This document shows, in pieces, positions 41,099-64,000 of a stretch of DNA of 64,000 nt. The translations under genes and the position numbers were made by a program. The notes under the pieces are model-generated. The model saw only the letters and a list, made by a program, of their open reading frames with translations, did no database searches and was not told the DNA's origin. Source of the DNA: Thermodesulfobacteriota bacterium (GTDB taxonomy: Bacteria > Desulfobacterota > Desulfobulbia > Desulfobulbales > SURF-16); contig JBMONN010000024.1 in NCBI GenBank assembly GCA_049323935.1, forward strand, positions 16,926-80,925. The letters are read 5' to 3'. Each line of letters begins with the position of its first letter. The first letter of the stretch is position 1.

Positions 41099-41159
41099 TG
41101 GTGCCCGGAGCGAGAATCGAACTCGCACAGCAACGAGTGCCGAGGGATTTTAAGTCCCT
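41099..41159 (-). pseudogene. 3' half of tRNA-Leu(UAA): displaced att copy, not a complete tRNA
   Basis: The minus strand reads AGGGA-CTTAAAA-TCCCT (anticodon arm, UAA), long variable arm CGGCACTCGTTGCTGTGC, T arm GAGTTCGATTCTC, acceptor 3' strand GCTCCGGGCA + CCA. No D arm or 5' acceptor strand lies upstream (ATTATGATATCAT instead). Confidence 0.8.
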
Positions 41160-41527
41160 ATGATATCATAATCTAATTATATGTTTTTATGGAAATTTTA
41201 TTTCACAACAATGCCATTTGTTCCATTTTTGTTCCATTTAGTATATTTTCACCGAGTACGAAACAACAAATCCGAAAATAAAAATGTGAGGCCAGACTGG
41301 TTCTTTCAAGTCTTTCAATTATTAGCGCCGGCGAGAAAGCCAGCCAATTCCAGCGGTGAGAAACGCCGCCACTGCCAACGGTCACGAACCCAGCCATTAT
41401 CATTTTCTTACCTGATTTTTTCATTTTTCTCTATTTACTTCCTCGCATTTTGTTCATCTGGTTCTTTTCCTTCCTGATTTTCCGTTTCTTCCCCAAGGTT
41501 GTATGGTGTCCCGCGGAGGTGGGAGCC

Positions 41528-41959
41528 ATGTCGAACCTGAAGATCCGCTGCGCCCATTGCAGATGCCTGTTTCTCCCCAACCCGCGGGTAAAAAATCAGT
41601 GCTATTGCGGTAAAAAGCCCTGTCAGGCGGCGAGGAAGAACCGCTGGTTAAAGCAGAAGCTGGCCACCGATGATGATTATCGTCTCATGAAAAAGGAGTG
41701 CCAGCAAGACTGGGCCAGGCGACATCCTGCATACTGGCGGCAATACCGCCGAAGGCGCCAGCAATATACGGACAGAAACCGGCAGCAGCAGAAATTTCGT
41801 CGACGCGGTGTGCTGGCCGTTACCAAAGTTGTCAAGAAAGACGCGTTAGATGTATTTTATGACGTAAAACCGGGAAGATACTTCCTGGTCCCCTTTACGG
41901 GGAAAAACGTTGCAAAGAAAGACGCGTTAATGGTCAATATTTCCCCAATTACAGCATGA
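41528..41959 (+). CDS. hypothetical Cys-rich, highly basic protein
   Basis: GGAGGTGGGAG RBS before ATG 41528. N-terminus CAHCRC-x14-CYC-x5-C (zinc-ribbon-like), Arg/Gln-rich middle, duplicated KKDAL peptide. No family recognised. Confidence 0.4.
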   Translation: MSNLKIRCAHCRCLFLPNPRVKNQCYCGKKPCQAARKNRWLKQKLATDDDYRLMKKECQQDWARRHPAYWRQYRRRRQQYTDRNRQQQKFRRRGVLAVTKVVKKDALDVFYDVKPGRYFLVPFTGKNVAKKDALMVNISPITA

Positions 41960-42012
41960 TAGGAGGATTGACGCCAAGAAAGACCCGATAGCTTTTTGCT
42001 TCCTGCCCAGGC

Positions 42013-42456
42013 ATGATTCGCCGCAGGAGGTGCATCATGATCAGCAAACATCCCCTTGTGCCCCAGCGGCTTCGCAGTGTCAGCGGAAGCTTCGCCTGCA
42101 TCGAGCATCGCTTTCTGCGTGATGGTTTCTGGGCCGTCCTCACCCAGCATGAACTGCTGCTCTATTTCTTTTTGCTCCTGGCCGCTGACCGGCAGGGGCT
42201 CTCCTATTACGGCTACGACAGAATCTGCACGCTGCTGCAGATCTCACTCGATGAGTACATTCTCGCCCGGGACGGATTGATCGCCAAGGACCTTGTCGCC
42301 TTTGACGGCCGGCTTTTCCAGGTCCTTTCCCTGCCTGATGTTGCTTGCCGGCAGCCGCCCCGGCTGCTTGACAACCGGCAGGATATGATCCGCCACGATC
42401 CGGCCACCATCAGCCAGCTCATTACCACGAGCCTTGGAGGAGACCATCATGATTGA
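42013..42456 (+). CDS. hypothetical protein, possible winged-helix DNA-binding protein, translationally coupled to istA
   Basis: 147 aa; its stop at 42454-56 overlaps the istA ATG at 42449. ELLLYFFLLLAADRQGLSYYGYDRICTLLQISLDEYILARDGL resembles a wHTH/DnaD-like segment. No family assigned. Confidence 0.45.
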   Translation: MIRRRRCIMISKHPLVPQRLRSVSGSFACIEHRFLRDGFWAVLTQHELLLYFFLLLAADRQGLSYYGYDRICTLLQISLDEYILARDGLIAKDLVAFDGRLFQVLSLPDVACRQPPRLLDNRQDMIRHDPATISQLITTSLGGDHHD

Positions 42457-43927
42457 ACAACGGACCATCTTCGAGATTCACCGCCTGGCCAACGACGGAC
42501 TTTCCATCCGCCAGATCGCCAAACGGGTGGGCCATGATCGCGCCACCGTCGCCGAGTATCTGCGCGAGCCCCAGCCCAGGCGGCCGACCTTTACCCGACC
42601 GAGTAAGCTTGACGCCTTCACCGGGGAGATCGACAGCCTCCTGGAGCGAGACCCCGATGTCAAGGCCACGGTGATCATGCAGCGGCTGGCCGCCAAGGGC
42701 TTTACCGGCAGGCTTTCCATTTTACGGGCGCACCTGCGCAAGGTCCGCAAACGGCACGCCAGGGCCTTCATCCGTTTCGAATCGGCCCCCGGCGAGCAAT
42801 GCCAGGTGGACTGGGGCCATTTCGGCAGTCTCGACTACGGCGCAACCTCGCGCAAGCTTTACTGCCTGGCGGTCATCGAGAGCCACAGCCGCATGCTTTA
42901 CCTGGAGTTCACCCATTCCCAACGCCAGGAAGCACTGCATCGCGGGCTGCTTAATGCCTTTCTCTTTTTCGGCGGCTCACCGAAAACCCTGGTGCATGAC
43001 AACATGCTCACCGCCGTCATCGAGCGCGACGGCCCGCTGATCCGTTTCAACGGGGCCTTCCTCGATTTTCTGCGCCCCTTGAAGATCACGCCCCGGCCCT
43101 GCAACGTCCGGCAGCCTCAGGAGAAGGGCAAGGTTGAAAAGGGCGCCATCCATTTCATCCGCCACAATTTCTGGCCCCTGCGGACCTTTACCGGCCTGCG
43201 CGACGTGCAGGCCCAGGCGGACTTGTGGCGCGACCGGGTGGCCAATGTCAGGGTGCATGCCACCACCGGCCAGCGGCCGGTTGACCGTATCCAGTCAGGC
43301 GCCATGCAACCCTTGCCGCAGCTTACGGCCGATTGCCGGGATACGGCGCTTGCCAAGGTGCACACCGATTTCTGCATCCACTTCGACGGCAACACCTATA
43401 CCGTCCCGCCCTGGTTGATCGGCAAAACCGTGGTCGTTAAGGCCGATCATTACCGGCTGACCATCTACTTCAAGGAAAAGGCCGTCGCCGAACATGCGCG
43501 CTCCTGGCAACGGCGGCAACGCCTCGAACTGCCGGCCCATCGCGAGGCGGCCAGAAAACACCTCAGCAACCACTACCGCTCCGCCGAGGTCGCGGCCTTG
43601 CTCAGCCTGGGAGAGGCGGCCAAGGACTACTTCGAACGGATGGCCGGCGCCAATCTGCCGGTGCGGAAAAACGTGCAACGCCTCCTCTATCTCAAAGATG
43701 AATACGGCGCCCATGCCATCCTCGAGGCCATGAAACGCGCTGCCGCCCATAATGCCTACGGCGCCCACTATATCGAAAACATCCTCTACCAGCAGATGAC
43801 CCCGCAGCGCAGCCATCCGCCCGTCACCCTCAAACAGCAGGAGCTCAACCGCATCCGGCTCGAAGAGCCCTCGCTTATGGATTACGATAGCTTTGTCGTC
43901 AAAAAAAGGAGCCGGGGCCATGACTGA
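42449..43927 (+). CDS. istA: IS21 family transposase IstA
   Basis: N-terminal HTH (GLSIRQIAKRVGHDRATV), DDE core (QVDWGHF..., HDNMLT..., ...GKVEKG...). Classic position before istB. Confidence 0.9.
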   Translation: MIEQRTIFEIHRLANDGLSIRQIAKRVGHDRATVAEYLREPQPRRPTFTRPSKLDAFTGEIDSLLERDPDVKATVIMQRLAAKGFTGRLSILRAHLRKVRKRHARAFIRFESAPGEQCQVDWGHFGSLDYGATSRKLYCLAVIESHSRMLYLEFTHSQRQEALHRGLLNAFLFFGGSPKTLVHDNMLTAVIERDGPLIRFNGAFLDFLRPLKITPRPCNVRQPQEKGKVEKGAIHFIRHNFWPLRTFTGLRDVQAQADLWRDRVANVRVHATTGQRPVDRIQSGAMQPLPQLTADCRDTALAKVHTDFCIHFDGNTYTVPPWLIGKTVVVKADHYRLTIYFKEKAVAEHARSWQRRQRLELPAHREAARKHLSNHYRSAEVAALLSLGEAAKDYFERMAGANLPVRKNVQRLLYLKDEYGAHAILEAMKRAAAHNAYGAHYIENILYQQMTPQRSHPPVTLKQQELNRIRLEEPSLMDYDSFVVKKRSRGHD

Positions 43928-44657
43928 TCGAGAACGGCTGCGCAAAAAACTTCACGATCTGCGCCTGCACGCCATGGCCGCTCAGCTTGACGAAATACTT
44001 GACCGGGCCGGCGCCAAAAACAACGGCCCGGCCGAGGTGCTGGCCAAACTGGCCGACATCGAAGCCGAACACCGCTGGCATAACAGTATTGCCCTGCGCT
44101 GGCGGCAGTCAGCCCTCAATGAAAAACTCACCGTCGACCAGTTCGACTTCCACCATCACAGCTCCAGAAATGAGCAGAAAACCCGTCTCCTCAACCTGTT
44201 CTCTCTCGACTTTGTCAGCCGGCACATGGATGTCATTCTCATCGGCAACCCCGGCACCGGCAAGACCTTTATCGCCAAGGCCCTTGCCTATGCCGCCTGC
44301 AACGCCAATATCAAAGTGCTCTTCACCACGGCCATGGACATGATCAACAACCTGATCGCCGCCGAGGCTGATCGGTCATTGCTCAAAAAACTCACATTTT
44401 ACCAAACTCCGGAACTCCTGGTCTGTGACGAACTCGGGTATCTTTCGCTGGGCCAACAGGGATCAAACCTCTTCTTCCAGGTAATCAGCCACAGGCATAA
44501 ACAAAAGTCGACCATGCTGACGACTAACCTGCCGTTCACTGACTGGGGGAATGTCTTCGATTCCACTACCGTGGCCACCGCCATCGCTGACCGACTCGTA
44601 CACAACTCGGAGGTCCTTGTTCTGGGAGGAAAAAGCTATCGCAGAAAGGAAAAATGA
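43920..44657 (+). CDS. istB: IS21 family helper ATPase IstB
   Basis: Walker A GNPGTGKTF, Walker B LLVCDELGY. AAGGAG RBS; the ATG overlaps the istA end. Confidence 0.9.
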   Translation: MTDRERLRKKLHDLRLHAMAAQLDEILDRAGAKNNGPAEVLAKLADIEAEHRWHNSIALRWRQSALNEKLTVDQFDFHHHSSRNEQKTRLLNLFSLDFVSRHMDVILIGNPGTGKTFIAKALAYAACNANIKVLFTTAMDMINNLIAAEADRSLLKKLTFYQTPELLVCDELGYLSLGQQGSNLFFQVISHRHKQKSTMLTTNLPFTDWGNVFDSTTVATAIADRLVHNSEVLVLGGKSYRRKEK

Positions 44658-44952
44658 GATAAAAACTGAAATTTAGAAGACGAAAAGACTGCCGGAGCGT
44701 CTGCCTTGAAGGCGGCCGGAAACGAGGCATTGTGCGCTTAAGTCACCGGTATTGCGCGGTGCTGCGTCCACCGGCGATGATGGCGGGATTTTGTTCCGCT
44801 GCTTTTGGCGGGGTTTCTGCTCGCTGTCAATATTCAATTGCCTTAAATGCCAGTCGCAGGAATACTACATCATGACGATTACTCGTAAAATATCTTAAAC
44901 GGCCTGATAATTTTCCCATCCTCGCTTCTCTCCCATTGATCCGCTGAAAGTT

Positions 44953-45537
44953 TTACGCGGACCTCGGCACATGAACTTTTTTATCAGCCAACCTTTTTTC
45001 CAAGTTGGCAATCCGTGCGTCCATCTCTTTCATCTGGTTCCGCAACGCCAGGTTTTCTTTTTTCGTGCTGACTGCTTCATGTAATGCATCGACCAACTCA
45101 GCCAGGACAGTACTGTAAGGTGTGTCCGACTCCAGGATCTCAACCACCTTCATAATTTTTTCAGAAATACTTGGCTGGTTCTCACCGGATTTAAGAGGAG
45201 ACTTTGAATCGATGGCTCTTCTCTCGCTCTTCGCCATATCGGTGCGCATCGGCGTTGTATGCACCCCTCCCCTATTCCCTGCCGAAATTATTATATCTTC
45301 TTCTCCCCCAAGAATACGACGGCCAAGGGCAAGCATATCCTCGTAAGCCATATTGAAGTAGCTGGTGATTTTAGCCCGCACTTCTTCTGACCCCGGCTTT
45401 CGGCCTTTGACAATGGCATTCAGGTAGCCACGGTCAATATTCTGTTGGCCAGCCAGTCGACTTTGCGCACCTCGTCCCTCTTGAGTCAAGAGATATGAGA
45501 GCGCCACATGAAACTGATTCGAAATTGATTGATCCAT
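44953..45537 (-). CDS. XRE/cI-like HTH transcriptional regulator with C-terminal coiled coil
   Basis: HTH QSRLAGQQNIDRGYLNAIVKGRK. No S24 peptidase domain. Heptad-like C-terminus (LRNQMKEMDARIANLEKRL). Confidence 0.7.
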   Translation of the reverse strand: MDQSISNQFHVALSYLLTQEGRGAQSRLAGQQNIDRGYLNAIVKGRKPGSEEVRAKITSYFNMAYEDMLALGRRILGGEEDIIISAGNRGGVHTTPMRTDMAKSERRAIDSKSPLKSGENQPSISEKIMKVVEILESDTPYSTVLAELVDALHEAVSTKKENLALRNQMKEMDARIANLEKRLADKKVHVPRSA

Positions 45538-45648: not shown

Positions 45649-45870
45649 ATGAAGACTACATCAAAGAAAATTACTCAGCGAGAGATAGCCAAGTCGGCCA
45701 AAATCGGTCCTGATTTTTTGAGTCACATTATTCGAGGCCGGCGGCGCTGTCCTCCGGCAGTTGCTCTTCGCCTGGAAGAAGCAACCGGCATCAGCAGGGT
45801 GACCTGGGTGTGGGGAAGTCCTGAGGAGATCAGGTCAGCACTAACTGAACACGCCTCAAAAGCAGGTTAA
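45649..45870 (+). CDS. Cro/XRE-like small HTH protein
   Basis: 73 aa, ITQREIAKSAKIGPDFLSHIIRGRR HTH; divergent from the cI-like gene. Confidence 0.65.
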   Translation: MKTTSKKITQREIAKSAKIGPDFLSHIIRGRRRCPPAVALRLEEATGISRVTWVWGSPEEIRSALTEHASKAG

Positions 45871-45873: not shown

Positions 45874-46197
45874 ATGGATATCGAATCCCGTCTCGCAGCC
45901 ATAGAAGAGAGCCAGCGCGAAATACTCAAGTTGTTGAGCAAGGGGAACAATTCCCTGCCGATGACCATGGGACTCAAGCAGGCGGCGGCCTATGCCGGCT
46001 ATTCACCGGACCATTTCAGGCGATTGGCTGTTGAGCAACGAATTATTCCTTTTTCCAGACCTTCAGGCCAACAAAAAGGCAAGTTACTGTTCAGGAAAGC
46101 GGATCTGGATAGGTTTCTGGACTCATCAACAAAAGGAAAAAAAGAGCTGAAGCAACCAGGACGCAAGAGAAAATCAAAAGATATTCGGTTGTGGTAA
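45874..46197 (+). CDS. excisionase/MerR-superfamily HTH DNA-binding protein (Xis/AlpA-like)
   Basis: 107 aa, MGLKQAAAYAGYSPDHFRRLAVEQRIIPFSRP...LFRKADLDRFL is the typical helix-turn-helix_17/excisionase pattern. Confidence 0.6.
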   Translation: MDIESRLAAIEESQREILKLLSKGNNSLPMTMGLKQAAAYAGYSPDHFRRLAVEQRIIPFSRPSGQQKGKLLFRKADLDRFLDSSTKGKKELKQPGRKRKSKDIRLW

Positions 46198-46203: not shown

Positions 46204-47079
46204 GTGGAGACAGTTGACGATAGTTTCATGAACGGCCTGAAGGGACTGTCACCAGAGCTTCAGAAAAAAATAAAGGACCTGGCCGAAAACCCACAGCTGC
46301 CTGTCTGGCATGAGGAGACCCGTGGCGTACCAAATCTCTGTTTGCGATCAGCCCTCTTTGGCGTAATTCAACGCGGTCGCAGAAAGGCGGTAAAGGGTGA
46401 GCTGGTTGCCGCGGTAAAGGGACTTGATATCCGCTATACCGGCTGGCGTCTGGATCAGGGTGATTTTGACGTTTTGGCTCATGCACTCCATCTTGCATCA
46501 CGACAGCAGGAACAATCACCTTCATGCCATGTGCAGTTTTCAGCTAAAGGGTTTCTGCGAGGAATCGGCCGAACGTCCGGTAAATCCGGGCGGGACTGGC
46601 TAAAAGATTCATTACGGCGTTTAACCGCCTCGGCTGTTGAGATCAAGGCGGAAATCCGGCATGGATGCTGGGCGGAATCTTACACCTATGCCGGTTCGTT
46701 GATCGATGAATTTTACTACAACGTTCGGGAAAGAACCTATTTCCTGAAAATAAACCCTAAACTCGCTTCCCTGTTTGATGCCGGCTGGACCATGTTGCAG
46801 TGGCCACAAAGAATTCTTCTCAAGACCGATCTGGCTAAATGGCTGCACGGTTTTTATGCCAGTCATGCCGTCCCTTATCCGGTGAAAGTTGCAACATTGA
46901 AACATTTATGCGGTTCCGAATGCAATCGGTTGTCTGATTTCCGGGGCAAGTTACGAACCGCATTGGAAGAACTGAGCAAATGTGGCGTTCTTGAATCCTG
47001 GGAAATAGACCGGCAAGACAAGGTTCATGTGCAAAAGAAGAAAAATATTAGCGGCAATGACAAAAATCAGGGGGCATAG
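46204..47079 (+). CDS. TrfA-like plasmid replication initiator
   Basis: GVPNLCLRSALFGVIQRGRR, IRYTGWRLDQGDFDVL, INPKLASLFDAGWT and WLHGFYASHAVPYPVKVATL match remembered TrfA family blocks. Iterons lie immediately downstream. The start may be ATG 46228. Confidence 0.7.
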   Translation: METVDDSFMNGLKGLSPELQKKIKDLAENPQLPVWHEETRGVPNLCLRSALFGVIQRGRRKAVKGELVAAVKGLDIRYTGWRLDQGDFDVLAHALHLASRQQEQSPSCHVQFSAKGFLRGIGRTSGKSGRDWLKDSLRRLTASAVEIKAEIRHGCWAESYTYAGSLIDEFYYNVRERTYFLKINPKLASLFDAGWTMLQWPQRILLKTDLAKWLHGFYASHAVPYPVKVATLKHLCGSECNRLSDFRGKLRTALEELSKCGVLESWEIDRQDKVHVQKKKNISGNDKNQGA

Positions 47080-47239
47080 CGGTCGCATGGGGTGGGCATA
47101 ACAGTCGCAGCGACGGGGCATAGCGGTCGTAAAGGGTGGGCATAACGGTCGCGCATGGGGGGCATAACAGTCGTAAGGGTGGGCATAGCGGTCGCGGAGA
47201 GGTGGGCATAGCAGTCGCACAAAGGGGGCATAGCGGTCG
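47072..47239 (+). repeat. iteron array: 8 direct copies of GGGCATARCRGTCG
   Basis: Copies start at 47072, 47093, 47116, 47138, 47160, 47181, 47203 and 47226 (spacing 21-23 bp, about two helical turns), overlapping and following the rep stop codon. Confidence 0.85.
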
Positions 47240-47289
47240 TAAATCAAAATTAACAAATTTCCCGAAACACTTGCAGCCAAGGAGATTGC

Positions 47290-47340
47290 GGAGGATGGCC
47301 GCATCCTCCTAATCATTTTTAATCTTATTTTAATCTTTTG
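47290..47340 (+). other. GC hairpin followed by AT-rich repeats (candidate terminator / DNA unwinding element of oriV)
   Basis: GGAGGATG gccg CATCCTCC (47290-47309), then TAATCATTTTTAATCTTATTTTAATCTTTT with TTTTAATCTT twice. Confidence 0.4.
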
Positions 47341-47372
47341 TGCATGGGGCATGTAAGAGGCCTGAAACAAAA

Positions 47373-47906
47373 ATGACACGACCAGTCGCAAATATTCAGC
47401 AAACAGACAGCAACGAAATGTGGGCAATGGCAATGCAGTGGGTCTCGGGCAACCGCAAACTCATACGCCAGATTGCATCGCCCTATATCCGGCACATGGC
47501 GGCAGACAGCAATGATCTCTTCCAGGAGGCGGCTATAGCTGCCTACAAAGCGCTGATCTCTTCACAAAAAAAGGAAAAACCAAATCAGTTTGTTCCCTTC
47601 TTCCGGGTCATTTTCAAAACAAACTGCATCAGGCTGGCATCGGGAATTCAGACGGTGCAAAGCCTGGAAGATTATCAACTCCCTTGTCCAGAAAAGCCGG
47701 AGGAGTCGGATGAACTGGAAACCGGCAGGATTGAAGAGGCATTGCAAGCCGTCAGTAAACGGCAGCGGGAAATCTGCATCTGGCTTTTGCAGCAGCCGGA
47801 ACCGGTCAGCACCCCGGATCTGGCCAGGGAGTTCAAGGTCAGCCGGCGACATGCCTGCCGCCTGATCAGCAGCAGTATTGAGCGCATTTCGGGAACGGCT
47901 CGATGA
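47373..47906 (+). CDS. sigma-70 family (ECF-like) RNA polymerase sigma factor
   Basis: Region 2-like DSNDLFQEAAIAAYKAL...FFRVIFKTNCIRLA and region 4 HTH SKRQREICIWLL...STPDLAREFKVSRRHACRLISSSIERI. Confidence 0.6.
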   Translation: MTRPVANIQQTDSNEMWAMAMQWVSGNRKLIRQIASPYIRHMAADSNDLFQEAAIAAYKALISSQKKEKPNQFVPFFRVIFKTNCIRLASGIQTVQSLEDYQLPCPEKPEESDELETGRIEEALQAVSKRQREICIWLLQQPEPVSTPDLAREFKVSRRHACRLISSSIERISGTAR

Positions 47907-48361
47907 ATGTGACGATCACGGAATACGCGGCAGCGTCGCTCATCCCCAAACGCATTCTCCGCTATCTGCACCGTGAAGGAATCATCCAGGATCCTCTCCG
48001 CCCGGAAGACCGGATCGGTCTGCAATTCCTCGAAAAGATCTGGGGCCGGAAAGAGGTGCTTCGAGCTCAATTAACCAAACTCTCCATGAAGGCCCGTCTC
48101 AGTTTTATCAGAACCGCCGACTTCTCAACCAAGTGGGAACGATATGCCTACAGCCGCTTCCGCAACCAGGAGCCGGGGAAAAAGCTGGCCATGCAATCGG
48201 TGATCGAGGAGATCGAAACCACCTTCTTTTTTCGACTGAACAAACAGCAGAGAAACCGGCTGTATAAGATCCGCAACCGGGCCCAGGTTGCCAGGCACCG
48301 GGATAAAATCCTGCCGAAGTTGAACGGCAACCTCTCTTACAGAGCACAAACAAATAAGTAA
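47903..48361 (+). CDS. hypothetical protein with N-terminal MerR-like HTH
   Basis: ITEYAAASLIPKRILRYLHREGII resembles the MerR-type HTH. 4-nt overlap with the sigma gene's stop. Confidence 0.4.
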   Translation: MNVTITEYAAASLIPKRILRYLHREGIIQDPLRPEDRIGLQFLEKIWGRKEVLRAQLTKLSMKARLSFIRTADFSTKWERYAYSRFRNQEPGKKLAMQSVIEEIETTFFFRLNKQQRNRLYKIRNRAQVARHRDKILPKLNGNLSYRAQTNK

Positions 48362-48483
48362 TAAACAGCATTTATTGGCCGCTTACCGGAAAAGAAAAAT
48401 TCAACTCTGCCGGGTAAATCCGGACAAAAAGTTTGGAAGACCGGTCACACGATCAGGAAAAAGAAAACAGAGGTGAGACAACA

Positions 48484-56606: not shown

Positions 56607-59058
56607 TGTGCTCTCTCAAGCCCGTTATGTGATGGCGGCTGATCCGACCTCGGCGGCTCGTGACGCAGCTGGCGCAGCGCTTAAGCAATTCGGATCAAGC
56701 GAGGCCATCCGCCGGAATGCCTCCCTGCCGCTCACTTCAGGCGAAACGCAGCTCTCGACCATCGACGGATCGGATGCCGCCGCCGTGCAGATCAGCCATC
56801 CCTCATCTTCAGCCTTTCTCACGGTCGCTGTCCAGAGAGCTGCCAGCGGCGATCTCACCCCGGTCCGGGTACGACAGGATCTCGATTTCGACGGCACTTT
56901 CGACTACAGCTATCAGCCTCCCTTGCCGATCTCCGGCATCTGCGCCAACGGTGTCATATCCTGTGATGTCGGCACCTGGGATCATTGCCGGACCTATAGC
57001 TGGATCAGCGACTGCGCCGGACGCGCGAATCTGACGGCCAGCCCCATGAGCACCCTGGCCGGCTGCTATTGTGTGAACCAGAGCTGCGGCAGCCCCGGCA
57101 ATCCGCGGGACATACTCAAGGACCTGGGCGGCGGTGCGGTGGCGGTGGTGCAGGAACGGAAAAGCGGGTATGCCGTGTCCAGGGTCGAGCTGACCGATTC
57201 CGCCATCAGCTATTACGGCCAGAACAACAGCGGCTCCCAAACAGGCGTGATGCCGCAGTCAGCATATTTTAACCAGCCCTCCACCATGGCCGGTGACGTC
57301 GATGCCGTAGTGGCAAACCAAACCGCCGATCCTGGCAGCTACTATTCCATGGTGAGCACCAGCATGGCCGAGCGGGGAGCCGCCACCAGTTTGCAGTCCT
57401 GCAGCATAAACCGTATTGTCACGGTGGAACAACTCTCACGGTCCTGCCCTGACGGCAAGCCACCCGACCCGATCTCGGGCCTATGCGTCGAATGGCGAGG
57501 ATCGGGGTCTTCTTCCGGGTATATATTTTTGTCCATCCCCGGTACCGTCCAAATAGCAAATGACCGGATACGACTCTCGATCGACAACATTGGTACAGGG
57601 AGTTGGGTCGAACTCAGAGGCACCGGCATCTCCCAGGCAGCATTTTTTTTCATCGAAGTGGCGGATAACCGCATACGCGCTGGCACTACCAGGTTTGGCA
57701 CGGGGGCCTGGATAAATTTGACCGGCTCCGGCAGGTCACAGGCGCCTTTCTTCGGGATCGAGGTTTCAGACGGTCGATTACGCTTTATCAGTATAGGAGG
57801 CAGCGTCGGCCAATGGGTTCGCTTTCTTTCCGAAAGCGATGCCGTCTGCACATACAAGGCGGCAGATACCATTAACGACCTGTGCAGCGCCATGGCAGAT
57901 AATCCAGATTGTTCCCTGCAGGAAGAAACCGTGGACTCGGTACAAATCTTCCGGAACTTCCAGCCTACCGGCCTTGCTCCGCTACCCTCGGTCAGAAGCT
58001 TCACCGCCTCATCGCCCTGTAACGCCGGTGAGCCGCCCTATGGCATGACCATTACCAGGAACTGGTGGCGGAAGGATCGCACTTACGTCTGCACCGGAAA
58101 CAACAATTTCGATTTCAGCGATGCCGCACGCAGGGTGGACACCATTACCAGTTCGGTTGAAGACAATACGCCATCCCGGGCGAACTTCGCTTTTACCGAT
58201 GCCAGAAAGGATCATGAGACCGGGGCATGGACGGTGGATGAGCAGACCGTGACCATCCCCGAGCTTGATCCGCCGCCTGACTGTGAAATGGTCTGCAAGA
58301 CGAGAAAGCAGGTAGAGGACAGCCAGGCTGGTGTAAACGGAGTGAGCACCGATTATCAGAATTCACCCACCAGGTACGACATTTTTTATCATGTCTGCGA
58401 TCTTGATAACAATTGCCCGAAAGGACCCGGAGAGGTCATCGTGGATGACTGCCGGTGTCTTGACGAATTCGCCGAAGCTGCTGCTGCCATGACGGTGCTT
58501 GACGAGGCTGGCCGCGACATGACATGTATCGATGGAGGAACCACCGCCAGCGGAGATTGTCTGGGTGAAATCAGAATCTTTGACGGCAGACGTTCGGAAT
58601 GTCTTGAGAACGGCTGGTCTACCTCATTTTTCAACTGCTGTGATGATTCGGCCGGCAGCTTTCTGTTTCTCAAGGAACATTGCCCTGACGCCAGCATCGA
58701 AACGGTTCAGGCCAAACAGGCGGGACGGGCTCATTATATCGGCACCTACTGCAAAAAAGACGTTCTGTTTATCGGCTGCGTGCAGGAGGCGGAAACATAC
58801 TGCTTGTTCAACTCCAAGCTTGGCCGGATCATCCATGAACAGGGCCGCATGCAACTGCAGAAATTCAACCCCAACGGCAACTGGGGCTCGGCACGTTCAC
58901 CCAACTGCGAAGGTTTCACCCCGGAAGAGTTTCAGATGCTTGATTTCTCGAAGATGGACTTTTCTGAGGTGTTTGGCGACATCGTGCCCTTGCCTGCGGC
59001 CCTGATGGAAAACGATGTCCAGGGTGCGATCAACGATTTCCAGAACAAGATGCGGTGA
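56563..59058 (+). CDS. traN: mating-pair stabilisation protein TraN (enlarged, about 830 aa)
   Basis: Signal peptide, many Cys, and the C-terminal TraN hallmark FFNCCDD...GCVQEAETYCLFNSKLGRIIHEQGRMQL...WGSARSPNCEGFTPEEFQMLDFSKMDFSEVF. Confidence 0.8.
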   Translation: MIKPSARWCVVIALSVLSQARYVMAADPTSAARDAAGAALKQFGSSEAIRRNASLPLTSGETQLSTIDGSDAAAVQISHPSSSAFLTVAVQRAASGDLTPVRVRQDLDFDGTFDYSYQPPLPISGICANGVISCDVGTWDHCRTYSWISDCAGRANLTASPMSTLAGCYCVNQSCGSPGNPRDILKDLGGGAVAVVQERKSGYAVSRVELTDSAISYYGQNNSGSQTGVMPQSAYFNQPSTMAGDVDAVVANQTADPGSYYSMVSTSMAERGAATSLQSCSINRIVTVEQLSRSCPDGKPPDPISGLCVEWRGSGSSSGYIFLSIPGTVQIANDRIRLSIDNIGTGSWVELRGTGISQAAFFFIEVADNRIRAGTTRFGTGAWINLTGSGRSQAPFFGIEVSDGRLRFISIGGSVGQWVRFLSESDAVCTYKAADTINDLCSAMADNPDCSLQEETVDSVQIFRNFQPTGLAPLPSVRSFTASSPCNAGEPPYGMTITRNWWRKDRTYVCTGNNNFDFSDAARRVDTITSSVEDNTPSRANFAFTDARKDHETGAWTVDEQTVTIPELDPPPDCEMVCKTRKQVEDSQAGVNGVSTDYQNSPTRYDIFYHVCDLDNNCPKGPGEVIVDDCRCLDEFAEAAAAMTVLDEAGRDMTCIDGGTTASGDCLGEIRIFDGRRSECLENGWSTSFFNCCDDSAGSFLFLKEHCPDASIETVQAKQAGRAHYIGTYCKKDVLFIGCVQEAETYCLFNSKLGRIIHEQGRMQLQKFNPNGNWGSARSPNCEGFTPEEFQMLDFSKMDFSEVFGDIVPLPAALMENDVQGAINDFQNKMR

Positions 59059-59160: not shown

Positions 59161-59210
59161 ATGGATAAAATTACTTACACAAGTTAATAAGTGTAAGGAT
59201 ATTTATCCAT
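59161..59210. promoter_or_regulatory. 50-bp near-perfect palindrome overlapping the abiEi start codon (candidate AbiEi operator)
   Basis: ATGGATAAAATTACTTACAC - aagttaataa - GTGTAAGGATATTTATCCAT. The 20-nt arms match at 17 of 20 positions. The right arm ends in the ATG at 59209. Confidence 0.5.
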
Positions 59211-59829
59211 GGAAAAACGTTCGGAACAACAAACTGCTCATGATAAAGCAATGCTGATCCTGAAAGAGCATGGAGGAACCCTGCGAACAGGCGAGGCTCT
59301 CAAGGCCGGAATTCACCCAAGGGTTCTTTACTCTCTTCGGGATCAAGAAAAAATCGAACAGGTATCGCGTGGCGTATACAGACTTTCCAACCTGCCCCCT
59401 ATATCAAACCCGGATCTCGTATCCGTCGCCCTTCGGGTTCCCAAGGCTGTGATTTGTCTGATTTCAGCACTTTCTTTCCATCACCTCACAACCCAGGTTC
59501 CTCATAAGGTTGCCATTGCGCTTGAAAGAGGGACTGAATCCCCCAGGATTGATTTTCCTCCTGTTTCCATTCACCGGTTCACCAAGGAAGCCTATTATGC
59601 CGGCGTCGAAAAACACGAAATCGATGGGGTGGAAATTCTCGTCTATAGCCCGGAAAAGACAATTGCCGATTGTTTCAAATTCCGCAACAAACTGGGGCTC
59701 GATGTCGTCCTGGAAGCTCTCAAACTCTATAAGGAAAGGGGGAGACTCAATACAGAAGAACTGATGCGGTATGGGCATATATGCCGGGTGTCGAAGATCA
59801 TGAAGCCATACCTGGAGGCGATGGTATGA
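59209..59829 (+). CDS. abiEi: type IV toxin-antitoxin system antitoxin AbiEi
   Basis: N-terminal wHTH LRTGEALKAGIHPRVLYSLRDQEKIEQVSRGVYRL. 206 aa; ATGA overlap with the next gene. Confidence 0.8.
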   Translation: MEKRSEQQTAHDKAMLILKEHGGTLRTGEALKAGIHPRVLYSLRDQEKIEQVSRGVYRLSNLPPISNPDLVSVALRVPKAVICLISALSFHHLTTQVPHKVAIALERGTESPRIDFPPVSIHRFTKEAYYAGVEKHEIDGVEILVYSPEKTIADCFKFRNKLGLDVVLEALKLYKERGRLNTEELMRYGHICRVSKIMKPYLEAMV

Positions 59830-60743
59830 ATGGAAAAACTCCGAAAAATATTGCCGCCTCGGTCCGTCAACGCTTGCTCAACAAGGCCAGACACGACAAG
59901 CGCCCCTTTAATGAACTGCTGCAATTCTTTGCCATTGAGCGTTTTCTATTCAGGTTGTCGCAGTCACCTCATGCGGAAAAGTTTATTTTAAAAGGCGCAT
60001 TGATGCTCAGAGCCTGGCAGGCCCCCTTCTTTCGGCCAACCATGGACATAGACATGCTCGGCCGGAACACCAGAAACGAGGTAGAAAAGATCATAAAGCA
60101 GATACGCGAGATCTGCCAGGTTTCGGTTGAACCTGAAGACGGATTGCAATTCGATACGGGCAATATTGCCGGGGAGAGAATCACCGAGGACGCCGATTAT
60201 GAAGGCGTGCGGGTGCGATTTACCGCCCGGCTTGAAACGACCAGAATTCCAATGCAGATTGATATCGGCTTTGGCGACGTGGTTGTCCCAGGTCCCCAGG
60301 TGGCGATCCTTCCCGCTATTCTGGATTTTCCCCCACCTCAACTGATTGGTTACAGCCTGGAGAGTGCTATTGCTGAAAAATTCGAGGCAATGGTAAAGCT
60401 GGGCGAATTGAACAGTCGCATGAAGGACTTTTATGATATCTGGCTGCTTTCCAGACAATTCGATTTCATGGGTGAGCGACTCAAGGACGCGATGTCCGAA
60501 ACATTGAAAAATCGTGGGACAAATCTTCCATCCGAAATTGTTGCATTCTCAAATTCTTTCCTTTCGATGAAAAGCGGACAATGGCAGGCTTTTCACAGAA
60601 GACTCGGACAAGAAAACATTCCTGCGGATTTTGCCGAGATCATACGCCAAGTTAAAATTTTCCTTTATCCAATTGTGGAATCCATTCGGTCAGGTATGGC
60701 AACGCCTTCCAGTTGGGAAGCGCCCGGTCCTTGGGAATCATAG
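59826..60743 (+). CDS. abiEii: AbiEii/AbiGii family nucleotidyltransferase toxin
   Basis: SVRQRLLNKARHDKRPFNELLQFFAIERFLFRLSQSP...FILKGALML N-terminal signature, and DIDMLG/DIGFGD nucleotidyltransferase acidic motifs. Confidence 0.85.
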   Translation: MNGKTPKNIAASVRQRLLNKARHDKRPFNELLQFFAIERFLFRLSQSPHAEKFILKGALMLRAWQAPFFRPTMDIDMLGRNTRNEVEKIIKQIREICQVSVEPEDGLQFDTGNIAGERITEDADYEGVRVRFTARLETTRIPMQIDIGFGDVVVPGPQVAILPAILDFPPPQLIGYSLESAIAEKFEAMVKLGELNSRMKDFYDIWLLSRQFDFMGERLKDAMSETLKNRGTNLPSEIVAFSNSFLSMKSGQWQAFHRRLGQENIPADFAEIIRQVKIFLYPIVESIRSGMATPSSWEAPGPWES

Positions 60744-60871: not shown

Positions 60872-61495
60872 GTGCGTTTTCAAGCAATCTTTGTAACAGC
60901 AATATTTATCTGTATGTTGGATGCCGATGTCTCTTTTGCCAGGCATCTCGGCACGGTGGGGCACGTTTATCCCGTTGTGGAGCCGGGCGCTTTGGCCGAG
61001 ATCCAGGAAGCGGCTGCGCGGGTGGACTGGGAAAAGGCAATCGACCGGCAGAAGAAGCTGGCGATGATCAAGAATTTCAGGCCCAGTGATCTGCATCCTT
61101 TGCCGGTTTCAAAGGAGGACAGGTCCTTCCTGGTTGACATGACCTACACCCTGGATAGCGATATACCGGCCGGGAAGGGCGGTGTGCTGTATCCCAGGGG
61201 CTTTTCTTTCAATCCCCTGGACTATGTCAGCCTCACGAGTACCCTGGTGGTGATCGATGCGGATGACCGGCGTCAGGTCGACTGGTTCAAGACCTCGCCA
61301 TATGCCGAGGATTACCGGACCCGGTTGATTCTCTCCGGTGGTGATTACTACGATCTCTCCGAGGAGCTTGACCGGCCTGTCTTTTATCTCATGGATACCG
61401 TTGCCCGACGGTTGAAGCTCGCGGCCGTGCCGTCGGTTATCCGGCAGCAGGATAATATGCTGCTGGTGCGGGAGGTAATGCTTCCTCATGAGTAG
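60872..61495 (+). CDS. traW: type-F conjugative transfer protein TraW
   Basis: Signal peptide, LGTVGHVYPVVEPGALAEIQE motif typical of TraW. GTG start. Confidence 0.8.
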   Translation: MRFQAIFVTAIFICMLDADVSFARHLGTVGHVYPVVEPGALAEIQEAAARVDWEKAIDRQKKLAMIKNFRPSDLHPLPVSKEDRSFLVDMTYTLDSDIPAGKGGVLYPRGFSFNPLDYVSLTSTLVVIDADDRRQVDWFKTSPYAEDYRTRLILSGGDYYDLSEELDRPVFYLMDTVARRLKLAAVPSVIRQQDNMLLVREVMLPHE

Positions 61496-62495
61496 ATATA
61501 TCGTAATTATCGCGTTTTTCCTGATTACGTTTTGGCCTCCTGGTTCCAATGCAGCCGTCAAGAGCGGCCAGTTCGTCAATCCCATCACCGATATCGCCTG
61601 GCAGGAGATCTTCCCGATCAAGATCGCGGGTATCACCATTGCCGGAGCATCCGGCAATTACGACACCCCTGATCCGGCATCAAGTCCGGTCTGTGTCTGC
61701 CCGGCCCCGCCTCCCATCTTTTATCGGATCGGTATTTCCGTGAGTTTCTGGGAGCCGGCCCGGATGATCGAGACCGTGGCCACGCCATACTATTTCCCCT
61801 CCCTTGGTTTTGGCCTTGACCTGGCCTCCACCAAGGGGTTTCTGTCGGGTAAGAACCATAGCTTGAATGATGCCCTGCCGGATCAATCCACTTTTGCCCA
61901 GGCCCATTATCTGCTTTTCCCGGTCTGGAGCATACTGGGTCTGTTAACCGATTTTGTCTGCGTCGAGCATTCCGGTTTTGACGTGGCCTATATCACCGAG
62001 ATCGACCCGCTCTGGCAGGACGACGAACTGGCCTTTATCATCCAGCCGGAGGCCCTGCTTTTTGCCAACCCATTCGCCCAGATGGCCTGTATTGCCGATT
62101 CGGTGGCGGTCAATGCCTACCGCCCCCTGGAAGCCCTTTACTGGTGCGTGGGCAGCGGCGGTTCCACCTATCCCATGACCGGCCATGTTGATGACGACAA
62201 CATCATTCAGGCTAACTCCACCATCGCGGCCCGAATGATCTATAAACTCGCACGGGAACTGCTGATCTGCGACACCGGCCTGAATCTCTGTTACTGCGTA
62301 CCGACGCCTATCTGGTACAAGCCCAATTACAAGCTGCAGGCCGTCCGCCCGGCGGTGAACAAAAAGGCCTGGCCCATCGGCAAGAGTGCCTTTTTTTACG
62401 GTGCCAATCTCAATCCGCCTTACCGGAGCGGCAAGGGGCCGGGAGATGAATTTCTGTGGATGGTTTTCAGGAAAAGGGCATGTTGCGCGTTTTAA
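61488..62495 (+). CDS. traU: type-F conjugative transfer protein TraU
   Basis: FVNPITDIAWQEIFPIKIAG, PVCVCPAPPP, SFWEPARMIETV...YYFPSLG TraU blocks. Confidence 0.9.
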   Translation: MSRYIVIIAFFLITFWPPGSNAAVKSGQFVNPITDIAWQEIFPIKIAGITIAGASGNYDTPDPASSPVCVCPAPPPIFYRIGISVSFWEPARMIETVATPYYFPSLGFGLDLASTKGFLSGKNHSLNDALPDQSTFAQAHYLLFPVWSILGLLTDFVCVEHSGFDVAYITEIDPLWQDDELAFIIQPEALLFANPFAQMACIADSVAVNAYRPLEALYWCVGSGGSTYPMTGHVDDDNIIQANSTIAARMIYKLARELLICDTGLNLCYCVPTPIWYKPNYKLQAVRPAVNKKAWPIGKSAFFYGANLNPPYRSGKGPGDEFLWMVFRKRACCAF

Positions 62496-63328
62496 AGAGG
62501 ATAACCGTCATGGCCGGGGCGATGATCCTTCTCGCCCTTTATCTTGCTGCCGGGCATGCATTTGCCGGCGGCAAGTCAGTCAATGATCTCAAGATGAATG
62601 ACATCGCCGGCGTTTTGCAGGAGGCTCAGGAGAAAGCAAAGGAACTGCAGCTTTCGGAACAGTACCCGGCGGATGACTGTGGCTGCCAGGATGCGGCAGG
62701 AAAGCTCATGGATAAATTCAACGCACCGGACCATCAGGCCAAGATGCGCGACGAGCAGCAGCGGCTGCGGGAAACCATATTCAAGGACATCCTCACCGAA
62801 TTCATGCCGCAAGGCGAGCAACATTCACCGCCCGATACAGCCTCCAACTCGGCACAACTCTATCTTTTTGTCTCAAGTTCGGTACCGCTCACCACGCTGC
62901 GCAACTATGCGGCCATGATTGACCATGCCCGCTCCGGCCAGGTGACCATGGTACTGCGGGGTTTTGTCGGCGGCATGAAGGAAATCCGGCCTACCATGGA
63001 ATTTATCGGCGAAATCCTGAAAAAAGACCCGGCCTGCGATTTCATGGAAGAAAAATACCCCGCAAGGAGGCATAAATGCGACAGCTACCAGGTGAATATC
63101 CAGGTCGATCCACTGCTTTTCCAGCGCTTTGCCATTGATGAAGTGCCTGCCCTGGCATATTTGCCGGTCAGTGAGAGCGATACCGAAGGAAAGGAGGCAG
63201 AACCGCTGATCGTAAACGGCGATGCGGGCCTGGATTACCTGCTGGAACGAATAAACAGAGAGGCCAAGCGCGCGGATCTCAACAGGCTTATTGCCGCTTT
63301 GCGAGGCAGAACAGGGAATGGAAATTGA
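62480..63328 (+). CDS. trbC: type-F pilin assembly protein TrbC
   Basis: Signal peptide, LYLFVSSSVPLTTLRNYA...VLRGFVGG, IDEVPALAY motifs. Confidence 0.75.
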   Translation: MLRVLKRITVMAGAMILLALYLAAGHAFAGGKSVNDLKMNDIAGVLQEAQEKAKELQLSEQYPADDCGCQDAAGKLMDKFNAPDHQAKMRDEQQRLRETIFKDILTEFMPQGEQHSPPDTASNSAQLYLFVSSSVPLTTLRNYAAMIDHARSGQVTMVLRGFVGGMKEIRPTMEFIGEILKKDPACDFMEEKYPARRHKCDSYQVNIQVDPLLFQRFAIDEVPALAYLPVSESDTEGKEAEPLIVNGDAGLDYLLERINREAKRADLNRLIAALRGRTGNGN

Positions 63329-63329
63329 A

Positions 63330-63665
63330 ATGAACGACAAGTCAGACGGAAAAACAAAACCTACTCCCAAAAAACATGGGCCCGGTTTTATAGCCGCCGC
63401 CTTTATCGCCTTGGTGGTGAGCCTTGTCACGACCATAGGCGTTGTCACGTTCTATGACCGGCGATACGCTCAGAAAATCGTGACCATGGATTTGCAGGGG
63501 TATATCCGTGACCAGCGGGACAAGGCGGTCAGCGGCGCAATATCCGATGCAGAGTTGCGCAAGAACATCGATGCCATGGAAGCGGCACTGCTGGCTGCAC
63601 CGCCCAATCACATTGTGCTCTTGAAAGAGGTGGTACTGAGGAATGCCGGGGAAATCAAACCTTAA
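63330..63665 (+). CDS. small single-TM protein, TrbI(F-type)-like
   Basis: 111 aa, TM FIAAAFIALVVSLVTTIGVV, then IVTMDLQGYIRDQ...VLLKEVVL. Size and position resemble F-type TrbI. Confidence 0.45.
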   Translation: MNDKSDGKTKPTPKKHGPGFIAAAFIALVVSLVTTIGVVTFYDRRYAQKIVTMDLQGYIRDQRDKAVSGAISDAELRKNIDAMEAALLAAPPNHIVLLKEVVLRNAGEIKP

Positions 63666-64000
63666 ACCCTCGACCCCATGGATAATCCCGGTGATAATGA
63701 CCGCGGCCCTGGCCATGGGCTTATGGCTCCCCGGCCATATCAGCGTGACGCTCACCCCGTCCCTCGGCTACCGCGTTTTCTTTCTGACCGAGCCGGAATC
63801 TCGGAATTTCAGACAAGGAGAATATCTCTTGTTTGGCAAGCATCTCGATCAAGCGCAAACAGACCGGCTGCTGAAAAAAGTTGGCTGCGCACCGGGCCAA
63901 AGGCTCAGTGCCGTTGAGGGGAAGTTTTCCTGTGACGGCCATTTTCTCGGCAGGGCTTTGGCCCGTGATGCAAAGGGCAACCCGTTGCCGCAATTCATCT
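63643..64000 (+). CDS. S26 signal-peptidase-like conjugal transfer protein (TraF/TrhF type), 3' end beyond the window
   Basis: Not in the supplied track because it has no stop in the window. Own translation: MPGKSNLKPSTPWIIPVIMTAALAMGLWLPGHISVTLTPSLGYRVFFLTEP...GEYLLFGK...LLKKVGCAPGQRLS. The frame is open to nt 64000. Confidence 0.6.
   Translation, partial: MPGKSNLKPSTPWIIPVIMTAALAMGLWLPGHISVTLTPSLGYRVFFLTEPESRNFRQGEYLLFGKHLDQAQTDRLLKKVGCAPGQRLSAVEGKFSCDGHFLGRALARDAKGNPLPQFI

What the first reader, a model, noticed from the sequence alone, without database searches (positions are those of the whole stretch)
41099..64000. Integrated F-type conjugative element bounded by a displaced 3' half of tRNA-Leu(UAA)
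- 41099-41159 (minus strand) carries the anticodon arm (UAA), long variable arm, T arm, 3' acceptor strand and CCA of a tRNA-Leu.
- The D arm and 5' acceptor strand are absent. This is the signature of the distal att copy left by a tyrosine-integrase element inserted into a tRNA 3' end.
- Given the fragment's orientation, the element must lie at higher coordinates. That side holds IS21, a cI/Cro-like pair, an Xis-like gene, TrfA with iterons and an almost complete MPF-F gene set.
- Neither chromosomal repeat family (A or B) was seen right of 41.1 kb, which supports a foreign origin.
- The intact tRNA-Leu, the integrase, the relaxase/T4CP and traF/H/G should lie beyond nt 64000.
- An F-type ICE in a Desulfobacterota-like genome is not a commonly described combination.
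Basis: partly seen in the sequence, partly recalled or inferred. Interest (0 to 1): 0.7.

Follow-up and report, generated by a model that had tools for sequence, protein, structure and literature searches.

The report
tRNA-Leu-bounded F-type conjugative element
The stretch from 41.1 kb to the window's end is one end of a conjugative element integrated into a tRNA-Leu gene of a Desulfobulbales-like chromosome; this is an ordinary kind of mobile DNA, but the family is undescribed and carries a plasmid-type TrfA replicon.

Summary
41099-41159 (minus strand) is the 3' 61 nt of tRNA-Leu(UAA), identical to intact tRNA genes in two Desulfobulbia-type MAGs. No complete tRNA is present.

To its right lie:
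- two TTGTTCCATTT repeats;
- a ~3.6-kb IS21 block;
- divergent HTH regulators;
- an Xis-like gene;
- TrfA with 7.8 x 22-bp iterons;
- MPF-F genes traL/E/K/B/V/C/N/W/U/trbC.

To its left are housekeeping genes and chromosomal repeats.

Relatives settle the interpretation. The same fragment / 57-61 nt / repeat motif / regulator / TrfA layout recurs in other genomes. The fragment is tRNA-Leu(UAA) in DB1-like MAGs and tRNA-Arg(UCU) in a complete 5.1-Mb chromosome. In that chromosome the intact tRNA, the same motif, a tyrosine integrase and a coupling protein lie ~112 kb away, in the predicted orientation.

In the window's own sequencing run, a contig carries the tRNA-Leu 3' end, the motif and an integrase gene. 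Its depth (32.6) matches the chromosome (31-36) and the element (29-34).

The window's own far end could not be read, and no relaxase was seen anywhere.

Verdict: a real integrative conjugative element and a new member of a known kind. The TrfA/iteron replicon in an F-type element is the unusual feature. Interest is moderate to low.

The parts
41099..41159 (-). Displaced 3' part (61 nt) of tRNA-Leu(UAA), from anticodon arm to CCA; attR core. 41099-41129 (T arm, acceptor strand, CCA) is the 31-nt block shared with the tRNA-Leu that sits next to the integrase.
41218..41239 (-). Two tandem TTGTTCCATTT units (minus strand: TGGAACAAAAATGGAACAAA), 57 nt from the fragment. Putative arm-type integrase-binding sites of the P arm. 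The same 20-mer lies just upstream of int in relatives.
   Evidence: the binding role is inferred
41240..44880 (+). About 3.6-kb block absent from the DB1 relative: two small ORFs (41450-41959, 42013-42456), then IS21-family istA (42434-43927) and istB (43893-44657). The ends of the IS were not defined.
44953..45537 (-). It is the first backbone gene next to attR in all relatives.
   Evidence: no family hit
45649..45870 (+). HTH_3 (Cro/XRE-type) regulator, divergent from the gene above.
45874..46197 (+). HTH_17 protein (Xis/AlpA/MerR-type); candidate excisionase or regulator.
46204..47079 (+). TrfA-family replication initiator. The probable start is 46228, as in the 100%-identical 283-aa database protein.
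47072..47243 (+). 7.8 copies of the 22-bp iteron GGGCATAGCGGTCGC..., followed by A+T-rich 11-mers at 47317-47337. Putative oriV; the same array is present in relative L003.
47340..48361 (+). Two conserved backbone genes: a weak sigma-70/ECF-like protein (47340-47906) and an unknown 152-aa protein (47903-48361).
48433..49212 (+). DsbC-like thiol:disulfide isomerase.
49231..49590 (+). Candidate propilin (TraA-like): signal peptide plus two hydrophobic segments, immediately upstream of traL.
   Evidence: (weak TrbC/VirB2 pilin hit); inferred from position
49596..52378 (+). traL (49596-49874), traE (49881-50438), traK (50460-51206), traB (51203-52378).
52392..53442 (-). Fic-domain protein (52392-52976) and HTH_3 partner (52966-53442). 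The pair is conserved between traB and traV in relatives.
53602..59058 (+). traV (53602-54105), traC, the VirB4-type ATPase (54108-56606), and traN (ORF 56458-59058; the true start is probably later).
59209..60743 (+). AbiEi/AbiEii toxin-antitoxin or abortive-infection pair inserted between traN and traW. It is absent from the variant element in run X2.
60872..63328 (+). traW (60872-61495), traU (61488-62495), trbC (62456/62480-63328).
63291..64000 (+). Weak TrbI_Ftype-like ORF (63291-63665) and a partial S26 signal-peptidase-like ORF (63643 to the window end).
   Evidence: both below the Pfam cut-offs

Best explanation
41099-64000 is the integrase-distal part of an integrative conjugative element (ICE) sitting in the chromosomal tRNA-Leu(UAA) gene.

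How it works (inferred, except where marked as shown):
- A tyrosine integrase recombined the element's attP with the tRNA gene. The crossover was most likely in the anticodon loop, because tRNA identity ends there in three independent elements.
- The element carries its own copy of the tRNA 3' part, which restores the gene at the far end (attL, next to int).
- The displaced 3' half at 41099-41159 marks attR. This is shown by the sequence.
- The two TTGTTCCATTT repeats 57 nt inside the element are probably arm-type integrase sites.

The backbone then runs as follows: divergent HTH regulators, an Xis-like HTH_17 gene, TrfA with its iteron oriV, and an F-type mating-pair-formation operon. An IS21 block, a Fic/HTH pair and an AbiE pair are inserted in it.

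On induction the element would excise as a circle, could be maintained or amplified from the TrfA/iteron origin, and would transfer through the F-type pilus system. The T4CP and relaxase needed for that would be encoded beyond the window.

The element belongs to a family widespread in Desulfobulbales whose integrases target different tRNA genes.
For: 1. The fragment is real and truncated exactly at the anticodon stem.

2. The left side is chromosomal: RecJ, adenylosuccinate lyase, homoserine dehydrogenase, the Tol-Pal cluster, a PEP-utilising enzyme and RlmH, plus repeat families that stop at 39.4 kb. The right side carries TrfA, iterons and MPF-F genes.

3. The end architecture is conserved: tRNA 3' fragment (minus strand), 57-61 nt, the TTTGTTCCATTTTTGTTCCA motif, the regulator gene, HTH_3, HTH_17, TrfA.
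   - L003/L004: a tRNA-Leu(UAA) fragment with a different variable arm and different left flank.
   - L005: a tRNA-Arg(UCU) fragment.

4. In the complete 5.11-Mb chromosome holding L005, an intact tRNA-Arg(tct), the motif, int, cargo, HU and a T4CP lie about 111.7 kb away. The intact tRNA and the fragment are on the same strand, and TrfA lies between them.

5. L007 and L017 each carry an intact tRNA-Leu(taa) followed by the motif and an integrase of this subfamily.

6. In run X1, which holds 99% of the window's words, a 1299-nt contig begins with 41128..41099. It continues through the motif into an int gene 97% identical to L007's, at depth 32.6. The chromosome is at 31-36 and the unique element contigs at 29-34.

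7. A related strain in run X3 has the same flank and the same fragment followed by a variant P arm at equal depth (13.2 and 13.7).
Against: - The integrase, the intact tRNA-Leu, the T4CP and the relaxase of this particular element are not in the window. Its 97,259-bp source contig could not be fetched.
- Logan's k=31 graph cannot tell attL/attR from attP/attB, because the shared core is exactly 31 nt. Integration therefore rests on the contig as given, on equal depth and on relatives.
- No relaxase was seen in any locus.
- Modules reshuffle in this family. In L006 the int/tRNA-Arg(tcg) end lies next to the TrfA module. In L017 the same integrase type carries non-conjugative cargo. The X1 integrase contig is therefore linked to this element only by inference.
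- An IS21 block sits only about 80 bp from the putative arm sites, and several chromosomal relatives look decayed or interrupted after traB.
Confidence: 0.85

Rival explanations
1. The element is integrated as described but is no longer self-transmissible. It would be a decaying or domesticated ICE that lacks a working integrase, relaxase or T4CP, or is crippled by the IS21 and AbiE insertions.
For: - Several chromosomal relatives keep TrfA to TraB and are then followed by IS elements or unrelated genes.
- An IS21 block abuts the P arm.
- No relaxase was seen anywhere.
- The far end was not read.
Against: - Every tra gene in the window is a full-length ORF with near-complete profile coverage.
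- A 93-95% identical variant sits in a different, more abundant organism of the same habitat. Its depth (~250) matches that organism's (~207-286), which implies recent transfer.
- An int gene with an intact 5' part is present at matching depth.
Confidence: 0.15
2. The element is an extrachromosomal TrfA plasmid carrying an attP with a tRNA-like core, and the chromosome has an empty intact tRNA-Leu. On this reading the window's contig is a chimeric join through the shared 31-nt core.
For: - A TrfA/iteron replicon is present.
- The k=31 graph is equally compatible with attP plus attB.
Against: - Chromosome, element and int contig all have the same depth (31-36, 29-34 and 32.6).
- The same junction type is found integrated in a closed chromosome and in other MAGs.
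- Inference: modern assemblers use k well above 31, so a 31-nt repeat should not cause a chimera.
- A related strain in X3 shows the flank and the fragment plus P arm at equal depth.
Confidence: 0.06
3. The tRNA fragment is a scar of an older, unrelated island. On this reading the F-type element merely lies beside it and has other boundaries.
For: - The IS21 block separates the fragment and motif from the backbone.
- In L003 the DNA left of the fragment is also mobile-element-like (ParA, AbiEii, transposase), which shows that islands can stack.
Against: - Fragment, motif and regulator gene are adjacent, without an IS, in L003/L004 and L005, with the same spacing and two different tRNA targets.
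- The motif recurs beside int in this family.
Confidence: 0.03

Closest known systems
SXT/R391 family ICEs (MPF-F; Vibrio and Providencia)
   Same: A chromosomally integrated element with an F-type mating-pair-formation set (TraL/E/K/B/V/C/N/W/U/TrbC, a DsbC-like protein) and a tyrosine integrase. It is plasmid-like in that it replicates and partitions (PMC4489591).
   Different: From my own knowledge, SXT integrates into prfC, not a tRNA, and its replication depends on the relaxase and oriT, not on a TrfA/iteron origin. There is no detectable nucleotide similarity here. The host phylum differs.
pKLC102 / PAPI-1 / ICEclc-type elements (MPF-G)
   Same: tRNA-gene integration by a tyrosine integrase that leaves a displaced 3' tRNA fragment. 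From my own knowledge, pKLC102 also has an oriV and can exist as a plasmid, so it is an ICE-plasmid hybrid.
   Different: Their transfer system is MPF-G, not MPF-F. The replication and partition genes are different, and there is no TrfA.
RK2/IncP-type TrfA-oriV replicon
   Same: A TrfA-family initiator (Pfam PF07042, 55.5 bits against a cut-off of 22) with an adjacent array of direct 22-bp repeats and an A+T-rich stretch.
   Different: The match to the family is distant (E = 6e-15). The iteron sequence differs from RK2's 17-mers (my own knowledge). The replicon is joined to MPF-F rather than MPF-T genes and to an integration module.
F, R27 and pNL1-like MPF-F conjugative plasmids
   Same: The gene repertoire and order of the pilus-assembly operon. 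traU gives weak nucleotide hits to sphingomonad plasmids.
   Different: This element is integrated in a chromosome at a tRNA gene, and it has a different replicon.
tRNA-targeting tyrosine integrase islands as catalogued in Islander
   Same: A regenerated tRNA at the int end and a displaced 3' fragment at the other end (PMC4383910). The fragment starts at the anticodon loop or stem, as in the anticodon-loop sublocation class (Williams 2002, from my own knowledge).
   Different: Nothing in principle. This integrase subfamily (350-360 aa, Int_N plus Phage_integrase) is uncharacterised.

Membership tests
Integrative conjugative element (ICE) | Lies in a chromosome between att sites, one of which is a displaced target fragment | tested here: met
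   attR fragment at 41099-41159 with a housekeeping flank on the left. The same architecture is closed by attL in a complete-chromosome relative. The window's own attL is not in the window.
Integrative conjugative element (ICE) | Encodes an integrase | tested here: inconclusive
   There is none in the window. Run X1 holds a contig with the tRNA-Leu 3' end, the motif and int at single-copy depth. Physical linkage to this element is not shown.
Integrative conjugative element (ICE) | Complete conjugation set: VirB4-type ATPase, T4CP, relaxase and MPF genes (criteria of PMC5587801) | tested here: inconclusive
   TraC (VirB4-type) and at least 9 MPF-F genes are present. A T4CP was seen only in relative L016. 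A relaxase was not seen anywhere.
Integrative conjugative element (ICE) | Excises to a circle and transfers | not testable with these tools
   Only k=31 contigs are available, and the shared core is 31 nt.
MPF-F (F-type) mating-pair-formation system | Type-specific genes TraL, TraE, TraK, TraB, TraV, TraC, TraW, TraU, TrbC, TraN, TraF, TraH, TraG | tested here: met
   Ten of the thirteen are found, above the Pfam cut-offs or with a strong but sub-cut-off NCBIfam hit for TraW. TraF, TraH and TraG are not in the window.
TrfA/iteron theta replicon | A TrfA-family initiator next to an array of iterons | tested here: met
   PF07042 at 55.5 bits against a cut-off of 22. 7.8 x 22-bp repeats lie at 47072-47243, and the array is conserved in L003. 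Replication activity was not tested.
IS21 family insertion sequence | istA (HTH plus rve) followed by istB (AAA+ IstB), bounded by terminal inverted repeats | tested here: inconclusive
   istA and istB are clear. The terminal repeats and target duplication could not be defined.
AbiE (type IV toxin-antitoxin / abortive infection) | AbiEi antitoxin-regulator followed by an AbiEii nucleotidyltransferase | tested here: met
   PF13338 and PF08843 are both above their cut-offs.

The most novel reading that the evidence does not exclude
This is the first recognised family of F-type ICE-plasmid hybrids. After excision the circle would be maintained by a TrfA/iteron theta replicon, a feature not found in any MPF-F ICE in the 2017 census (PMC5587801). 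The family would be spread across Desulfobulbales, with its integrase retargeted among tRNA-Leu(UAA), tRNA-Arg(UCU) and tRNA-Arg(UCG).
Probability: 0.4. Interest if true: 0.5.

Novelty: new member of a known kind. Interest (0 to 1): 0.35.

Why it matters
It shows that the simple 'displaced tRNA half' signature correctly located the boundary of an ICE in an uncultured sulfur-cycle bacterium.

It also defines a previously undescribed element family that moves between co-occurring Desulfobulbales. Two variants sit in two organisms of one biofilm study.

The native TrfA/iteron origin, the tRNA-specific integrase with its att site, and the F-type transfer genes are candidate parts for genetic tools in Desulfobulbales. 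To my knowledge few such tools exist for this group.

The F-type plus TrfA-replicon combination adds a data point to the ICE-plasmid continuum.

Tried and rejected
- **Exact-protein look-ups.** Look-ups of window proteins (TrbC with two different starts, and TraU) to extend the contig all found nothing on record.
- **Genome-contig scan.** The scan with the 61-nt fragment found only two non-syntenic MAGs with intact tRNA-Leu. There was no second copy from the source genome.
- **Plasmid database.** It gave only 143-nt traU hits at 76% and one 52-nt istB hit.
- **IMG/VR scans.** Scans with TraU and with the integrase found nothing.
- **Second IS21 copy.** I considered that an IS21-mediated inversion explains why L006 has int next to TrfA. 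I rejected this for the window because in X1 one unbranched contig runs from the fragment through the IS at single-copy depth.
- **Depth excess.** I first read the depths 28 against 37 at the junction as excess element copies. Wider sampling showed the chromosome at 31-36, so there is no excess.
- **IS21 ends.** Attempts to define them by inverted repeats were inconclusive.

Full report
**1. The observation**

On the minus strand, 41159 to 41099 reads AGGGA CTTAAAA TCCCT, then CGGCACTCGTTGCTG, then TGCGAG TTCGATT CTCGC, then TCCGGGCA CCA. That is the anticodon arm with anticodon UAA, a long variable arm, the T arm, the 3' acceptor strand and CCA.

- ARAGORN reports no tRNA in the whole window.
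- Rfam has no hit at gathering score.
- In permissive mode the only hit is a sub-threshold tRNA-clan match (24.2 bits against 47). Its 'D arm' is the palindrome ATGATATCAT just inside the element.
- The 61 nt occur exactly in two intact tRNA-Leu(taa) genes of other MAGs, L001 (Desulfobulbia) and L002.
- BLAST similarity to those loci ends at 41159/41160, and nothing else in them resembles the window.

So the fragment is a real 5'-truncated tRNA-Leu(UAA) gene.

**2. The two sides of the fragment**

The left side carries chromosomal housekeeping genes:
- RecJ, adenylosuccinate lyase, a LeuA-type synthase, homoserine dehydrogenase, TolA/TolB/YbgF, a PEP-utilising enzyme, RlmH, AlgH and GGDEF proteins.
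- Two dispersed repeat families whose last copy ends at 39379. In the source metagenome these repeats have about ten-fold excess k-mer depth.

The right side carries, in order:
- two TTGTTCCATTT repeats at 41218-41239;
- IS21 istA/istB, preceded by two small ORFs;
- a 194-aa HTH-like/coiled-coil protein on the minus strand, then HTH_3, HTH_17 and TrfA;
- 7.8 x 22-bp iterons at 47072-47243, followed by A+T-rich 11-mers;
- two conserved unknown genes, a DsbC-like protein and a propilin-like ORF;
- TraL, TraE, TraK and TraB;
- a minus-strand Fic/HTH pair;
- TraV, TraC and TraN;
- AbiEi/AbiEii;
- TraW, TraU and TrbC;
- weak TrbI-like and S26-peptidase-like ORFs at the window edge.

**3. Relatives fix the boundary**

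TrfA has hundreds of homologues, many labelled Desulfobulbaceae, Desulfocapsa or Desulforhopalus. Several lie on contigs from 0.1 Mb up to 5.6 Mb, which means they are chromosomal.

The contexts share the order regulator(-), HTH_3, HTH_17, TrfA, two unknown genes, OmpA or DsbC, pilin, TraL/E/K/B and onwards. The DB1-like loci L003/L004 are 61-93% identical in protein from the regulator gene through TraC.

The exact 20-mer TTTGTTCCATTTTTGTTCCA lies just beyond the 3' end of the regulator gene in L003 and L004. It also occurs there with 1-2 mismatches in L005, L009 and L010.

A minus-strand tRNA 3' fragment lies 57-61 nt further out:
- L003/L004: tRNA-Leu(UAA), with another variable arm and another left flank.
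- L005: tRNA-Arg(UCU).
- L009/L010: only a degenerate tRNA-Arg(CCU)-like remnant (my reading; ARAGORN finds no tRNA there), 53 nt from the motif.

The window differs from L003 only by the ~3.6-kb IS21-containing block (41240-44880) between the motif and the regulator gene. The fragment therefore belongs to this backbone and marks its end.

**4. The far end, seen in a closed genome**

L005 lies on a 5,109,700-bp contig. An integrase homologue on the same contig (L016) is preceded by an intact tRNA-Arg(tct) and by GAGGAACAAAAAATGGAACAAAAAAT. It is followed by cargo genes, HU, three unknown genes and a T4CP on the opposite strand.

In record coordinates the intact tRNA starts at about 2,687,847 and the fragment ends at about 2,799,594. 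Both are on the same strand, and TrfA lies between them. That gives an element of about 112 kb with the canonical layout: tRNA, int, element, displaced fragment.

The fragment and the intact tRNA agree over the anticodon arm (20 nt), the T loop and the acceptor end. They differ by compensatory changes in the T stem.

**5. The integrase for tRNA-Leu**

A gapped pattern (tRNA T arm to CCA, 105-125 nt, then the 20-mer) hit one JGI contig, L007. It carries an intact tRNA-Leu(taa), 115 nt, the 20-mer, then an integrase start. L017 shows the same thing with a 74%-identical integrase.

L007's tRNA shares the anticodon arm and the last 31 nt with the window fragment, but it has a different variable arm.

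**6. The window's own sample**

Run X1 (biofilm metagenome) holds 99% of the window's k-mers. Its Logan contigs break at exactly the 31-mer 41099-41129.

Two contigs enter that node from the left:
- the window's left flank;
- a 1299-nt contig at depth 32.6. Laid on L007, this contig covers 11126-12172 at 97% identity. It is therefore the tRNA-Leu 3' end, the P' arm and int.

The depths are 31-36 for chromosome contigs, 29-34 for contigs unique to the element and 32.6 for the int contig. That is a 1:1:1 ratio.

Because the shared core equals k, the graph cannot tell attL/attR from attP/attB. This is the main remaining gap.

The source contig is 97,259 bp long but could not be retrieved.

**7. 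Mobility in the habitat**

- X1 also holds a 9-13x variant of the element.
- In X2 (same study) this variant is at about 250x, matching an abundant organism there (207-286x). That organism's tRNA-Leu equals the window fragment. The variant lacks the AbiE pair and the regulator gene.
- X3 (a subsurface metagenome) has a ~94% identical left flank. It also has a contig in which 41101-41155 is followed by a different P arm, both at about 13x.

In the X3 variant and L003, tRNA identity ends at the equivalent of window position 41155, just past the anticodon loop; in the window it runs on to 41159, through the anticodon stem. This argues for a crossover in the anticodon loop (inference).

**8. Caveats from relatives**

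- L006 (a 5.56-Mb chromosome) has tRNA-Arg(tcg), the motif and int directly beside HTH_17/TrfA, and IS66 copies after traB.
- L005, L009, L011 and L012 run from TrfA to TraB and then into IS elements or unrelated genes within the 10 kb that could be seen.
- L013 has int preceded only by a tRNA remnant and a defence-like island.

Modules therefore reshuffle and decay, and no relaxase was observed anywhere.

**9. Comparison with what is known**

The principle is textbook: the regenerated tRNA and the displaced fragment mark the ends of the island (PMC4383910).

From the 2017 ICE census (PMC5587801):
- ICEs of type F are few.
- 30% of ICEs flank tRNAs, with Leu among the commonest.
- No theta-replication protein was found in a type F ICE.

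SXT/R391 elements replicate, but through their relaxase (PMC4489591).

Searches for ICEs in Desulfobulbaceae or cable bacteria found no description.

This is therefore a new member of a known kind. Its distinctive combination is MPF-F, a TrfA/iteron replicon and a tRNA-targeting integrase.

**10. Verdict**

Confidence is about 0.85 that this is the attR-proximal part of an integrated conjugative element. Interest is moderate to low (0.35).

Noticed in passing
window 4734-4811, 24369-24475, 25072-25227, 32841-32875, 35648-35715, 37242-37349, 39304-39379: A dispersed ~75-110-nt repeat family in both orientations (REP/MITE-like), found only in the chromosomal part. In runs X1 and X2 its k-mer depth is about 10 times the flanking depth, so it is high-copy in the genome or community.
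   Followed up: partly
window 2878-2918, 13178-13218, 31708-31748: A second short repeat family starting CTCTGTGGTCTCTGTGG; again only left of 41 kb.
   Followed up: no
window 31581-31702 and 32903-33024: A 122-nt inverted repeat (77% complementary) brackets the YbgF/CpoB-like TPR gene of the Tol-Pal cluster.
   Followed up: no
L005, L006, L009, L011, L012 (about 9.4-16 kb in each, except L012 about 4-10.5 kb): Several chromosomal relatives carry HTH_17, TrfA, two unknown genes, OmpA, pilin and TraL/E/K/B, and then pass straight into IS elements or unrelated genes at the same point after traB. This is either a recurrent decay or interruption point, or a conserved partial module.
   Followed up: partly
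L006 7621-10915: In a closed 5.56-Mb chromosome, intact tRNA-Arg(tcg), the motif and int lie directly next to HTH_17/TrfA. A degenerate inverted copy of the motif sits at 9047-9066. The att/int module is inverted relative to the window type.
   Followed up: partly
window 58834-60774 and 44822-45623, seen through run X2: The abundant variant element in X2 (~250x) lacks the AbiE pair and the regulator-gene region; depth there is about 0. It appears to reside in a different, more abundant organism whose intact tRNA-Leu equals the window fragment.
   Followed up: partly
window 41320-44685, seen through runs X2-X20: The IS21 block, including the two upstream ORFs, is found at 93-96% identity as one unit in X2 and X3. 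Runs X4-X20 (groundwater, soil, rock and drinking-water metagenomes) each hold 12-21% of the words of 38000-44000, but I did not check which part. The unit's ends and the role of the ORFs at 41450-41959 and 42013-42456 are unresolved.
   Followed up: partly
L013 1-9497: Upstream of an integrase of this family, in place of a tRNA, there is a short tRNA-3'-end remnant. Beside it is a defence-like island: an N6 methyltransferase, an SNF2 helicase, a 1761-aa DEAD/MZB helicase and an HTH_17 protein.
   Followed up: no
window 52392-53442 (minus strand): A Fic-domain protein plus an HTH partner are conserved at 80-86% between traB and traV in L003, L004 and L008, so they seem to be a fixed accessory of the backbone.
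   Followed up: partly
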